Assembly (NCBI GenBank): GCA_051362555.1
Contig: CM120643.1
Location: 682,001 to 746,000, forward strand
Source: Lingula anatina
Taxonomy: Eukaryota > Animalia > Brachiopoda
DNA length: 64,000 bases
Reading direction: 5' to 3'
The notes under the pieces are model-generated. The model searched no databases. It was given only the letters and a program-made list of their open reading frames with translations, and was not told the origin of the DNA. Below are positions 3,701-42,561 of this stretch, piece by piece. The position numbers were made by a program, and so were the translations under genes. How positions within the stretch are numbered: the first letter of the stretch is position 1; every line of letters starts with the position of its first letter.

Positions 3701-6700
3701 AAGTTGGTGCAGCTTAGGCTAAAACTCAGTGAGGCTCAGGTGAACTTTAATGTTACACATATTTTTATTTGAAGTTTTTCTTTCCAAAAAAAAAAAAAAA
3801 AATATATATATATATATATATATATATATATATATATATGTATATGTTACCTAAGAGGATAATTGAAAACATTTTGATGAGTTTCATATTTGCCTTTAAG
3901 ACAATGAATTATTGAATTATGACAGCTCTGAATTGGAAGTGCAAACACTGTCATCTCAAGCTATGAAACCACTCCCTTAAATTTACACACTCATGCACGC
4001 ACGCACGCACGCACGCACACACACATACACACATTTGAGATTTAGTTTTCTGTACATCTCCATCTCATTTTGACCATTCCCACCCCACATATCCCAGGAC
4101 ACACCTGACATCCAGCCAGACGTGAAGACAGTGCTTGGCCATACCTTCAAACATAAAACCCAGACCAGTTCTAAGACCAACTACTGTGAGAGGTGTAACC
4201 GTGTTATCTGGGGGCTGATGCAGGCCAGATACAAGTGTACAGGTAAGTGTAAGAACTGTAGTTAGATTAATCAAAGATTTGTCTCTGATGACAATTTTGT
4301 TAAAGTGTACTACATGCCCATTTAAGTGAGGCTTTATTCGTCTGTATCCCCATGTGTCTGAAAGTTCCTTTCAGTTATTAAAAGCAGGTGGTGCTGTTAA
4401 TATGAACTAATATTGATGTTCTCTCTAGGTTGTGGCTACCATTGTCATGAATGGTGTATTAATATGAACTAATATTGATGTTCTCTCTAGGTTGTGACTA
4501 CCAGTGTCATGAATGGTGTATTAATATGAACTAATATTGATGTTCTCTCTAGGTTGTGGCTACCAGTGTTATGAACAGTGTATTAATATAAACTAATATT
4601 GATGTTATCTCTAGGTTGTGACTACCAGTGTCATGAATGGTGTATTAATATGAACTAATATTGATGTTCTCTCTAGGTTGTGGCTACCAGTGTCATGAGC
4701 GCTGTATTAATCTCATCCTCAGACAGTGTGCAAAACAAAAGGTGAAGTATTGACTACTGTGAGTTCATGAAATAAGCTAGTACATGCACACGTTTACCAA
4801 ATTAATTTATGTTTGAATTTTGAAGATAGATTTAAAACATTAAGGCAAAGTGTTTATGAAGGAAGACCATTATACTGTGGATTACCTGAAGTTGAGCACT
4901 ATATTCCTGATTATTTATTTATTTATTTACTTTTAAAATTGAATAAGAATTGAATTGAATTAATGCAGAAATGTCTCCATAACTCAATTCATTATTTCAT
5001 TATTTGCCCAGGTTTCTGATAACCCCGTGTATCAGTTGAATATCTGCCCTGAGAGAGGACTGTCAGCTCAGGGCTATAGGTGTGCTGAATGCAGGGTGCA
5101 GATTGCATACACTAACAGTAAGTTATGTACAGTCTTTGGCTTAGAACTCTCTCACATTTCGTAAGGCTCAGGATGTTACTTAAGTTATAGTACATAAAAA
5201 CTGACAACAGTCCCGGCTAGATTTGCTTTCTGAAGAGCAGATTCAAGCTTTAAAAGGAAGGGAAGTTTTGTCTTTAAAAAAACTTTCATAAACGGCAGAT
5301 AGTAAATGGGAATGCTCACCCAACACATTTCAAGTCCACACTGTCACAACTAACACATTTCAACTCCACACTGTCACATTGCAGACTGTGCTGTGACACA
5401 ATTCTGTTGACTGTATACCTGCAGCAGTATATGTTCTGTTCCAGAAGGCCCTCGTGGACAGAGTGAGCCCAGGAAGTGTGACTACTCGGGTTTATTTTAT
5501 TGCGCTCTATGTCACTGGAACGACAGTGTTGTTATTCCAGCCAGAGTTCTGCACAACTGGGACTTTGAACCCAGAAAGGTAGGCTTGACTTCCAGAACAA
5601 CACAGTCTTGACATATAGAGCTAATTGCATTAGTTTCTTTTGTTTGATTCAGATGATTTTAATTAGATGAACTCCCCCTTCTCCCTTCTCTGTCTCCCCT
5701 ACCACTCTCTTTTTCTTCAAAAATGGAAAGAAGAAAAGAAAAAGAATATTTTCCCAAATCTCTCTCTCCCTGTCTCTCTTCTGCCAAAAAGAAAGAAAAG
5801 AAGCCAAAGTAAATACCAGTGACGCTAATGTAGAGAGGGATGATGATAATATTAATACTTGATCATTGTTGCTGGGTTTCTAGTAGCAAAACTATTAAAA
5901 CTTAAATATAACTTGTTATTTCACCTTGGTACTTTTAAGTTATGAGAATATTTACAAATTGGCTACAAGTTTTACAATTTTTGTCAGGTGTGTCGCTCCT
6001 CCAAGCAGTATCTGCGGTTGATGTTACAGAGAGCCGTGCTGCGTATTCAGGACATCAACCCCATGTTGTTTAGTTTTGTGGAAGAACTAAATGAGGTCAA
6101 GGTAGATATAGAAGTTAAGATGTCAACTCCATAAAACATAAATAATGAAATTTGATGATTGGGGGTTTGATAGGTGGAAAATGTTCAGACTTAAAATTCA
6201 TTTGTAAATTACATGTAAATTTGCAATCAATTTAAAGCAATTCAATGTAAAACAAGGCAAAGATGCTACGACGTAGAGTTGACATTAAGTGATGAAAGTT
6301 TGATGTGTTCATGTAGTTACCATGGTTATTTTCTAGCAATTTACAGTAAAATGAAGTTACTTATACTTTCAGAAATTACGTGAGGAAATCCTCATCATGA
6401 AGAAGTACTTTCTTGTCTGTGAAGATGCACTGAAAAGTAGACTACTACTACAGGTAAATGAGAACTTTTATCAATAACACATTGTCATAGCTAGTTTTTA
6501 TGTACAGACACTGAAAAGTAGACTACTACTACAGGTTAATGAGAACTTTCATCAATAACACATTTAAATTCATAGCTAGTTTTTTTTAATTCTGCATTTA
6601 GAATCAAACTAACTTAATAGACTATCAACTAACAGTGAGCTGTATATATTTGTACAATCACAATAGCTGCACCTGACATGTGCAGTATTCAAATAACAAG

Positions 6701-40100: not shown

Positions 40101-42561
40101 AAACAGCAATTGGACGGCTGCCAGCAACACCAGACGGCCTATATTTTCAAAGGCGGCTGGATTTTTTTTTGGAAATATGACAGCTTTAGGCATACTTGGA
40201 CTCCCTGAAATTGTGTAGAAATTTATAGGTGGTAAATTTGGACGGGCTGTACCCACAATCCTGGGTGTTTATTGTCTGTTTTTATTATGTTTATGTATGT
40301 TTATTGTAATGTCCCATGTCTGTTTAATGTAATGTATATAATATGATTATACCTATGTCAGTTCACTATACTATGTGGTTTTATGTCTGTAATGTTTATA
40401 ATATATTTATGATATATGTTATACTGTCCATTTATTATAATGTCTATATATGATATATAAACTGTCCATGTATCATAATGTCTATTTCAGGTCACCTCAT
40501 CCACAGATTTGGTATCACAGAACAAGACTGGCATCGCATTAAACTGAACATTGACTCCAAGTGTCGCACTGCCTTCAGAAGAAAACAGAAAGGAATGCCG
40601 CTCACTGTCAAGGCCTTCCATGGCAAGTCCCCCACACAGCTTGGCATGACCCTACGAGGCATGTCTGGCATCAACTCTGACGGGGAAGACTCCATGCAGG
40701 AGTCAGCCCTGACAATACATCAGGTAATAGCATAGCAATAATTTGTTTATCAGACTTTTTGTATACAGTTTTTATTTATTGGAAAACCTTTTTGCTTCTG
40801 GGCAATTTTTCCACCTCAAGCATTCTGTGCCCCCCCTCCCCGCCCCCCCCCCTTTACTTTCTCTTGCAGTCCGAGGGTTTAGATGAATCCTGTGTTAATG
40901 ACTTTACTTTGTCTTGCAGCCGGAGGGTTTAGATGGACCCTGTGTTAATGACTTTACTTTATCTTGCAGCCAGAGAGTTTAGACGGACCCTGTGTTAATG
41001 ACTTTACTTTGTCTTGCAGTCAGAGGGTTTAGATGAACCCTGTGTTAATGACTTTACTTTATCTTGCAGTCCGAGGGTTTAGATGAACCCTGTGTTAATG
41101 TCTTTACTTTCTCTTGCAGCCGGAGGGTTTAGACGCGGCCCACTCCATGGCGACCTTACACAGTCAGCTGGGGATCACACAGCACGGTGAGGTCCAGATC
41201 CTCCACGCCACACCAGAACAGATCGAGCAGCTTAGGGAGGCCCATCATATACAAGTGTTGAATGGAGATCAGGTGTTACAGGTAAGATTATATACAGGTG
41301 TTGAATGGAGATCAGGTGTTACAGGTAAGATTATATACAGGTGTTGAATGGAGATCAGGTGTTACAGGTAAGATTATATACAGGTGTTGAATGGAGATCA
41401 GGTGTTACAGGTAAGATTATATACAGGTGTTGAATGGAGATCAGGTGTTACAGGTAAGATTATATACAGGTGTTGAATGGAGATCAGGTGTTACAGGTAA
41501 GATTATATACAGGTGTTGAATGGAGATCAGGTGTTACAGGTAAGATTATATACAGGTGTTGAATGGAGATCAGGTGTTACAGGTAAGATTATATACAGGT
41601 GTTGAATGGAGATCAGGTGTTACAGGTAAGATTATATACAGGTGTTGAATGAAGGTCAAGAGTTACAGGTGAGAAGGGGTTTCTCGTAGTACAAATGTTA
41701 GAGATAGAGAGGGAGGTTCTGTCTCACTTGTGAGAAAAATTATCCCATCTTCACAGTGACTTAAGAACACGCTCATGTGGGACTCCAAATGATTCCCAAA
41801 TGTTTTAATCCTAGTGAAAACTATGCTACAACAGTCCATGAGGTTGTATGTTTAAGAGGAAAAAGGTTATTTTGATGATACTTCTTATAAAATGTATAAG
41901 GAAAAAAATTAAATAAAGTTGTGATTGTTTTGTGACCTGCCCGTCACTGATTTCTGTTTTTCTAAAACCCCACATTTTCTCCACATTTCCAGTTAAAGCA
42001 TGGAGATCTTCAGGGCGTAGATGTGGCGGTGTCGTTAGCTGGCACGCAGACAGTGCAGATGGTGACTACAGAGAGTGGCGAGGTGTTACAAATCACCCAG
42101 GCCGCGGACCACGTGGGACAGGACGACACCTCGTTTCAGGACCAGTTACAACAACAGCAGCAGCAGGACCAAGATGACCTTCAGGAAGACATCAACCCAG
42201 CGGGAATACGGGTGGAAATGCAGGTAAGGCTAGGCACTACAATTGGTCTCGTGGTACTCTATTTTGTAGTTCACTAATTGACTAGCTTTTCACAAATTGA
42301 TTTATAAATTGGTGGAAGATGACTGAGCATTTGAACAAAGATGTGGAAACACTTGTAGGTGACATACACTGTCATAATTGTAGAAAATACTGAGATATAA
42401 AAAATTCTGTAAGAGAAGTTTTATCATCAGTTATGTAAATTAGAAAGTCAATTACTTTAAATACATCATTTTTTTCTTTACCCTAGCAGTCAGGTGAGGA
42501 CGAGAATGAGTCGGAACAACAGGAGGAGGTGACGATAGAGGTTCATCAGGCCTCTGCGTAA
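37114..42561 (+). CDS. BANP: BANP/SMAR1 BEN-domain transcription factor, ~465 aa
   Basis: Exons 37114-37201, 37651-37727, 38526-38686, 39019-39225, 39661-39824, 40491-40723, 41120-41281, 41993-42223, 42487-42561. NVTLITLNTEEDYPDGTWLGDESNPEMRVR, NCRTAEKMALTLLDYLF, NLSGMGKHGKKQLDPLMIYGIRCHL and IDSKCRTAFRRKQ are near-identical to vertebrate BANP as I recall it. Confidence 0.95.
37832..38256. repeat. 85-bp x5 intronic minisatellite in BANP
   Basis: Units start at 37832, 37917, 38002, 38087 and 38172; mid-intron, not on a splice site. Confidence 0.93.
39263..39437. mobile_element. Hairpin MITE, probably PIF/Harbinger-like
   Basis: ~60-bp TIRs ggccccattcagaataggg... / ...ccctattctgaatggggcc, flanked by taa/tta; 37 nt downstream of a BANP donor. 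Confidence 0.85.
40852..41134 (+). repeat. 50-bp tandem repeat giving six copies of the acceptor of BANP exon 41120-41281
   Basis: ctttactttntcttgcAG ends at 40869, 40919, 40969, 41019, 41069 and 41119; each is followed by ~14 nt of exon-start sequence. Confidence 0.95.
41247..41673 (+). repeat. 43-bp x~10 tandem repeat of the end and donor of the same BANP exon
   Basis: Unit caggtgttgaatggagatcaggtgttacag|GTAAGattatata; GTAAG at 41282 and every 43 nt to 41626, plus a degenerate copy with GTGAG at 41669. Confidence 0.95.

What the first reader, a model, noticed from the sequence alone, without database searches (positions are those of the whole stretch)
4397..41673. Recurrent tandem amplification of splice sites and a stop codon in three unrelated genes: possible splice-site-anchored repeat system
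Seen: eight independent 39-100 bp duplications with unrelated units lie on or next to functional boundaries. These are the DEF8 acceptor (x5, 4397-4711), donor (x2, 6428-6586) and stop (x18, 8017-8753); POGLUT donors (x4-5 at 18068-18260 and x2-3 at 22265-22445) and an acceptor-adjacent array (x5, 18961-19158); and the BANP acceptor (x6) and donor (x10) around one exon. By contrast, I found only one multi-copy array of this unit size mid-intron outside a transposon (37832-38256), although introns make up most of these genes. In the six splice-site cases the unit joins an exon fragment, the splice dinucleotide and an intron fragment. The frame-preserving site is always the exon-proximal one, and extending the exon to any other copy gives a stop or frameshift. 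Known: tandem duplication of AGGT-containing segments is a proposed route to intron gain, and poison splice choices feed NMD. Inference: either a mutational process targets exon boundaries (e.g. linked to co-transcriptional splicing or R-loops), or copy number tunes productive splicing. I do not know of a description of this pattern at such density.
Basis: partly seen in the sequence, partly recalled or inferred. Interest (0 to 1): 0.82.

Follow-up and report, generated by a model that had tools for sequence, protein, structure and literature searches.

The report
Exon-edge "mirage" minisatellites in three genes
Six of the 28 introns in three neighbouring animal genes carry head-to-tail copies of an exon edge with its splice signal; this repeat type is already known from lancelets, chickens and a human gene, the RNA reads seen use only the copy next to the exon, and the repeats are likely harmless by-products of DNA duplication, not a control device.

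Summary
The arrays are real. Six 39-105 bp tandem duplications span splice sites of a DEF8-like, a POGLUT2/3-like and a BANP-like gene, and a seventh spans the DEF8 stop codon. 7 of 11 clear arrays inside these genes straddle a coding edge against about 1.5 expected (P about 1e-4 to 1e-3, not corrected for window selection). At the four sites tested, all 56 listed RNA reads use the exon-proximal site. A contig from another sample has 2 copies of the BANP donor unit where the window has 10. That every extra site gives a stop is uninformative: 95.5% of random extensions do too. The pattern is described: lancelet "mirages", chicken "exon stuttering", the human F7 intron 7 VNTR. This scan also noted it before in other windows of this genome and in at least 8 genomes (unchecked notes). 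Best reading: tolerated VNTRs, seeded or retained preferentially at exon edges and ignored by the spliceosome. The cause of the excess at exon edges remains open. New member of a known kind.

The parts
722..8051 (+). DEF8-like gene, 12 coding exons, 920 aa (C1-like and Rubicon homology domains)
   Evidence: Gene model; Pfam RH_dom above cut-off on 3 exons, C1_1 below cut-off; RNA joints
4397..4711 (+). DEF8 intron 4 acceptor array, 62 bp x5 (about 33 intronic + 29 exonic bases); the last copy (exon starts 4677) is the one used
   Evidence: 19 RNA reads join 4242 to 4677, RNA depth 0 at 4320-4589; contigs of another sample lie inside the array
6428..6564 (+). DEF8 intron 9 donor duplication, period 81, 2 copies; first donor (6453) used
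   Evidence: 20 RNA loose ends leave at 6453 into the next exon, depth 0 at 6480-6569
8017..8753 (+). DEF8 stop-codon array, 41 bp x18: last 11 codons, TGA (8049-8051) and a few 3' UTR bases; 17 extra copies lie behind the stop
   Evidence: not covered by laid reads
16404..29307 (-). POGLUT2/3 (KDELC)-like gene, 10 coding exons, 513 aa
   Evidence: Gene model; Pfam Filamin and Glyco_transf_90 above cut-off; no reads laid
18068..18261 (-). POGLUT intron 7 donor array, 39 bp, 4 good copies and a decayed fifth; frame-keeping donor at 18246
18961..19156 (-). 42 bp x4.7 array, wholly intronic, ending 11 bp before the exon 6 start; holds no splice site
22264..22445 (-). POGLUT intron 3 donor duplication, period about 101, with a nested 10 bp duplication giving 3 donors; the second copy is interrupted by a MITE-like element
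21721..22264 (.). MITE-like element inserted inside the second donor copy; carries its own 32 bp x10 array (21740-22060)
   Evidence: related copy near 42935-43180
37114..42561 (+).
   Evidence: Gene model; RNA joints
37832..38256 (+). 85 bp x5 array inside BANP intron 2, 105 bp from the donor; no exon content
   Evidence: 8 RNA reads skip the whole intron, RNA depth 0 over the array; no Rfam match
40852..41135 (+). BANP intron 6 acceptor array, 50 bp, 6 acceptors; the last (exon starts 41120) is used
   Evidence: 12 RNA reads join 40723 to 41120
41247..41674 (+). BANP intron 7 donor array, 43 bp x10 (35 exonic + 8 intronic bases); 8 identical inner copies, diverged last copy; first donor (41281) used
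   Evidence: 5 RNA reads join 41281 to 41993; a contig of run X7 skips 344 bases = 8 units
5322..5378 (+).

Best explanation
These are tandem repeats built from exon edges ("mirage" minisatellites) whose spare splice signals went unused in the RNA reads seen, and they are likely neutral by-products of local DNA duplication followed by copy-number drift. Shown: units join exon, splice dinucleotide and intron; the exon-proximal site is the one spliced at four sites; copy number differs between samples at one array; the excess at coding edges. Inferred: (1) a 40-100 bp tandem duplication arises by slippage or break repair; (2) wholly exonic ones of non-triplet length are purged, while those crossing a splice site or the stop leave the spare copy in non-coding DNA; (3) two copies then grow and shrink by unequal exchange or slippage; (4) the spliceosome picks the first donor (as in human F7) and the last acceptor, which needs exon definition or decay of the other products. 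The filter alone does not explain the excess, because my null already removes exonic events; duplications must also arise or persist more often at exon edges, by a cause not identified here.
For: Anatomy matches the published definition (PMC3087553 passages). 56 of 56 listed RNA reads at 4 sites use the exon-proximal copy (19+20+12+5), with RNA depth 0 at 4320-4589, 6480-6569 and 41328-41699. A 478-nt contig of X7 has 2 units against 10 (344 = 8 x 43). Inner copies identical and the end copy diverged (8 differences in 43), the usual turnover pattern. Spare copies decay: point changes, a donor changed to GTTAAT, a MITE-like insertion inside one copy. Unit lengths show no triplet bias (62, 81, 41, 39, 101, 50, 43). 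The stop-codon array follows the same survival rule with no splicing involved.
Against: RNA depth is low (about 6 in 100 of the large runs read; joints under 3 reads are not listed; 3 joints were not shown) and comes from steady-state RNA, so use of extra sites followed by decay is not excluded. POGLUT and stop arrays had no reads laid. The 2-copy allele rests on one assembled contig, and assemblers can collapse loops. The step that draws duplications to exon edges is unexplained; junction microhomology was unclear for most arrays. Neutrality was not measured.
Confidence: 0.7

Rival explanations
1. A mutational process tied to splicing itself (co-transcriptional R-loops or breaks at splice sites) seeds the duplications.
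For: 6 of 10 arrays span splice sites against 1.4-1.5 expected; donors (4) and acceptors (2) are both hit.
Against: The largest array spans a stop codon, not a splice site. Offsets vary (8-55 intronic bases). 5 of 6 non-spanning arrays lie within 105 bp of an exon (P about 0.02, threshold chosen after the fact), which points to exon proximity in general.
Confidence: 0.12
2. Copy number tunes productive splicing: extra sites are poison choices that feed nonsense-mediated decay.
For: All 24 tested extra sites keep GT or AG and give a premature stop; copy number differs between samples at one array; human tandem repeats associated with splicing variation are catalogued (PMC10078293, search listing only).
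Against: 95.5% of random extensions also give a stop or frameshift. No use of extra sites among 56 listed reads. Copies are decaying and one is broken by an insertion. Published mirages and F7 pseudo-sites are reported as silent.
Confidence: 0.07
3. Ordinary minisatellites at random positions; the excess comes from short introns and from picking a striking window.
For: Introns are short (257-852 bp for most); the window was selected; arrays were classed by hand; 6 of 13 arrays do not span a boundary.
Against: The null accounts for intron length and still gives P 1e-4 to 1e-3. The three longest POGLUT introns (4.2, 2.1, 1.8 kb) hold no 30-110 bp array away from an exon, and TRF finds only two two-copy repeats of 30-140 bp outside the genes.
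Confidence: 0.08
4. Assembly artefact.
Against: Copies differ by point changes. Contigs of other samples cross unit junctions: X5 in the 62 bp array, X7 in the 43 bp array.
Confidence: 0.03

Closest known systems
Amphioxus 'mirage' minisatellites (Adh3; globins BflGb6, BflGb9; troponin C; PGBD5). Read: passages of PMC3087553 and PMC3902484; the 2002 Adh paper was not held
   Same: [quoted passage not shown]
   Different: A different animal (earlier scan notes call this genome the brachiopod Lingula; not checked here). Six of 28 introns in three adjacent genes, plus a stop-codon case; the passages read report single genes and give no test of enrichment.
Chicken 'exon stuttering' (bioRxiv 10.1101/2025.09.16.676548; passages read; supplements closed)
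   Same: Partial exon copies expanded into the adjacent intron, source at the exon border, 1-44 copies, length polymorphism.
   Different: There it is concentrated on GC-rich dot chromosomes (190 of 5,572 introns, 3.4%), with G-quadruplexes suggested. Here the DNA is AT-rich (introns 34% GC) and 4 of 28 introns pass a similar 20-base rule, in a selected window.
Human F7 intron 7 37-bp VNTR (PMC1557585; abstract read)
   Same: First unit spans the donor; identical downstream pseudo-donors stay silent; most upstream site chosen.
   Different: The 5'-to-3' scanning model covers donors only. Two arrays here are at acceptors, where the most downstream copy is used.
Intron gain by tandem duplication of an AGGT-containing segment (model as summarised in PMC3087553 passages; PMC3265369, PMC4974935 seen as listings only)
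   Same: 5 of 7 boundary units contain AGGT.
   Different: These duplications sit at existing splice sites and no new intron or junction is seen.

Membership tests
Mirage minisatellite | Tandem unit spans an exon-intron boundary | tested here: met
   6 arrays; not met by 18961-19156, 37832-38256 or the stop array
Mirage minisatellite | Minisatellite-size unit (10-160 bp in the paper) | tested here: met
   39-105 bp
Mirage minisatellite | Copies keep AG or GT signals | tested here: met
   24 of 24 extra copies tested
Mirage minisatellite | Normal splicing is not disturbed | tested here: met
   4 of 6 sites tested, 56 listed reads all at the exon-proximal site, low depth
Mirage minisatellite | Length differs between haplotypes | tested here: met
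   One array: 2 against 10 units, one contig of X7
Mirage minisatellite | Concerted evolution of inner units, diverged edge unit | tested here: met
   BANP donor array: 8 identical inner copies, last copy 8 differences from the exon copy; decayed last copy also at POGLUT intron 7
Mirage minisatellite | Somatic instability | not testable with these tools
   Needs tissue-level genotyping
Exon stuttering (chicken) | At least 20 bases of an exon copied into the adjacent intron | tested here: met
   4 of 28 introns
Exon stuttering (chicken) | GC-rich dot-chromosome setting | tested here: not met
   Window GC 0.29-0.40; arrays 0.31-0.46
Intron gain by tandem duplication | Donor of one copy spliced to acceptor of a later copy, making a new intron | tested here: not met
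   No such joint at the 4 sites with reads; arrays lie at existing boundaries
Poison-site / NMD regulation | Extra site used, more so when NMD is blocked | tested here: inconclusive
   Not seen in steady-state RNA at low depth; no NMD-blocked data

The most novel reading that the evidence does not exclude
In highly polymorphic animal genomes, repair or recombination between homologues can only start in conserved coding DNA; synthesis that runs off the exon into a diverged intron or UTR aborts and re-anneals, leaving a tandem duplication across the coding edge. Mirages would then be a genome-wide footprint of where homology ends, hitting a fifth of introns here and explaining donors, acceptors and the stop codon alike. 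The acceptor arrays would also be natural experiments showing that the last of up to six near-identical 3' splice sites is chosen.
Probability: 0.15. Interest if true: 0.65.

Novelty: new member of a known kind. Interest (0 to 1): 0.3.

Why it matters
As repeats these are known. What is open in print is their cause (PMC3087553 calls the mechanism unclear; the chicken preprint says it can only speculate) and whether they are enriched at exon edges. A genome where about a fifth of introns in a stretch carry them, with copy-number alleles and RNA data, makes two questions testable: what biases duplication to coding edges, and how the spliceosome chooses among identical acceptors. In practice they can also mislead gene prediction and short-read assembly.

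Tried and rejected
No whole genome is held for this window, so no genome-wide test. No RNA holder listed by the word index; RNA evidence comes from raw-read runs with the same species label. Rfam at gathering score: 0 matches in the window, so no known RNA family behind the mid-intron 85 bp array; 8 reads skip it, so no hidden exon seen. 'Every extension gives a stop' as evidence of design: rejected, base rate 95.5%, and 86.9% for in-frame lengths. Junction microhomology: looked at for 11 arrays, no consistent signature because edges have decayed. Contig depth as copy number: not used, the tool warns against it. The 2002 amphioxus Adh paper is not held. PMC6792250 (passages) and PMC2812944 (outline and section 9) did not bear on the pattern directly. 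Searches for a description in Lingula found nothing relevant (0 papers; 4 unrelated listings); a search on mechanism gave 2 unrelated listings. The library lacks most subscription papers, and the preprint's supplements are closed. The BANP-like protein was not compared with any database.
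Full report
Setting. The window is AT-rich animal DNA (GC 0.29-0.40). No whole genome is held. Earlier notes of this scan call the genome the brachiopod Lingula; I did not check this. I built three gene models by hand: DEF8-like (+, 722-8051, 12 coding exons), POGLUT2/3-like (-, 29307-16404, 10 exons) and BANP-like (+, 37114-42561, 9 exons). All 28 introns are GT-AG and the frames are open. Pfam supports the first two (RH_dom; Filamin and Glyco_transf_90).

Observation. TRF finds six of the eight named arrays and the mid-intron array; my scan finds the two two-copy duplications. Six span a splice site: DEF8 acceptor (62 bp x5) and donor (81 x2), POGLUT donors (39 x4-5; about 101 x2 with a nested 10 bp repeat), BANP acceptor (50 x6) and donor (43 x10). 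One spans the DEF8 stop codon (41 x18). The eighth (18961-19156) is wholly intronic, 11 bp from the exon.

More than chance? I collapsed each array to one unit and placed it uniformly in the collapsed genes, allowing only viable positions (intronic or boundary-spanning, with or without in-frame exonic ones). 7 of 11 clear arrays span a coding edge against 1.5-1.6 expected (P 1.3e-4 to 2.1e-4); 7 of 13 with the weak ones against 1.8-2.0 (P 7e-4 to 1e-3); splice sites alone 6 of 10 against 1.4-1.5 (P 7e-4 to 1.1e-3). The window was chosen for the pattern and the classes are mine, so this is an in-window result only. Because the null already removes exonic events, purifying selection alone does not produce the excess.

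Are the extra sites used? Raw RNA reads from runs with the same species label were laid on two stretches (4 different RNA runs, 6 to 25 in 100 of each read). DEF8 acceptor: 19 reads join 4242 to 4677 (13 in X12, 6 in X15, none listed in X18), depth 0 at 4320-4589. DEF8 donor: 20 loose ends leave at 6453 into the next exon, depth 0 at 6480-6569. BANP acceptor: 12 reads join 40723 to 41120. BANP donor: 5 reads (X13 only) join 41281 to 41993, depth 0 at 41328-41699. No joint at any other copy is listed. Limits: joints under 3 reads are not listed, 3 joints were not shown, a few reads of the opposite orientation lie at 40770-40955, and decay could hide wrong products. POGLUT and the stop array were not covered.

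The 'poison' argument. All 24 extra sites tested keep GT or AG and give a premature stop. But extending the 50 array-free splice sites by 39-105 bases gives a stop or frameshift in 3199 of 3350 cases (95.5%), so this says nothing about design.

Real and variable. In run X5 (another sample) contigs lie inside the 62 bp array, one of 100 bases crossing a unit junction. In X7 (another study) one 478-base contig skips 344 bases, exactly 8 units, leaving the exon copy and the diverged last copy; in X6 the contigs break at this array. This reads as a 2-copy allele against 10, with the caveat that assemblers can collapse loops. The 8 inner copies are identical and the last differs at 8 of 43 places. 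In POGLUT intron 3 a MITE-like element sits inside the second copy, whose sequence resumes for about 13 bases behind it: duplication came first, and the spare copy is free to decay.

Mechanism. Shown: anatomy, site use at four sites, one copy-number difference, in-window excess. Inferred: short tandem duplications arise; those crossing a coding edge leave the spare copy in non-coding DNA and survive; they then behave as VNTRs. For donors the first copy is used, as in human F7 (abstract). For acceptors the last copy is used although upstream DEF8 copies carry the same 33 intronic bases with 0-2 differences, which scanning does not explain; exon definition or decay is the likely reason. What draws duplications to exon edges is unknown. 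The stop-codon array, the variable offsets and the five near-exon non-spanning arrays point to exons in general more than to splice sites. Candidates, none tested: higher GC (exons 47%, introns 34%), repair or recombination concentrated in conserved exons, or longer survival because selection pins one copy. All 14 small indels listed between samples are intronic (one more not shown), which fits the homology-edge idea but is also what selection alone gives.

What is known. [quoted passage not shown] PMC3902484 (passages) adds PGBD5 and troponin C. The chicken preprint (passages) screens for exon stuttering and finds it in 190 of 5,572 dot-chromosome introns; a similar rule gives 4 of 28 here. 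I found no paper on this in Lingula, within a library that lacks most subscription papers. The scan holds 31 notes with these words in at least 8 genomes, two from this genome; they gave me the term and the papers, which I then read, and they are not independent support.

Verdict. Observation confirmed with small corrections; regulatory reading unsupported; a known kind of repeat in a dense, clean example. Interest 0.3. The part worth pursuing is the unexplained excess at coding edges.

Noticed in passing
Not identified.
   Followed up: no
window 29943-35514: A 5.6 kb element with 1.1 kb terminal inverted repeats, 98.4% identical, between the POGLUT-like and BANP-like genes; likely a recent DNA transposon.
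   Followed up: partly
window 39260-39440: A short hairpin element in BANP intron 4 with very high depth in DNA contigs and RNA reads on both strands; likely a high-copy MITE.
   Followed up: partly
window 5445-5448: Tandem acceptor 3 bases apart in the DEF8-like gene: run X15 has 4 reads at 5448 and 2 at 5445, while X12 has 36 at 5445.
   Followed up: no
window 49750-62000: Four to five copies of a unit of about 2 kb or more, 84-94% identical, filling much of the last quarter of the window.
   Followed up: no
window 25044-25711: A perfect 77 bp inverted repeat bounding about 670 bp in POGLUT intron 1; and a 230 bp repeat shared by 27671-27901 and 33432-33665.
   Followed up: no
window 722-2228: The DEF8-like gene has a 1.5 kb first coding exon of low-complexity, acidic sequence with an in-frame 18 bp repeat at 786-828.
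   Followed up: no
window 5864: A contig of run X5 leaves the window sequence here into other DNA, possibly an insertion allele in DEF8 intron 7.
   Followed up: no
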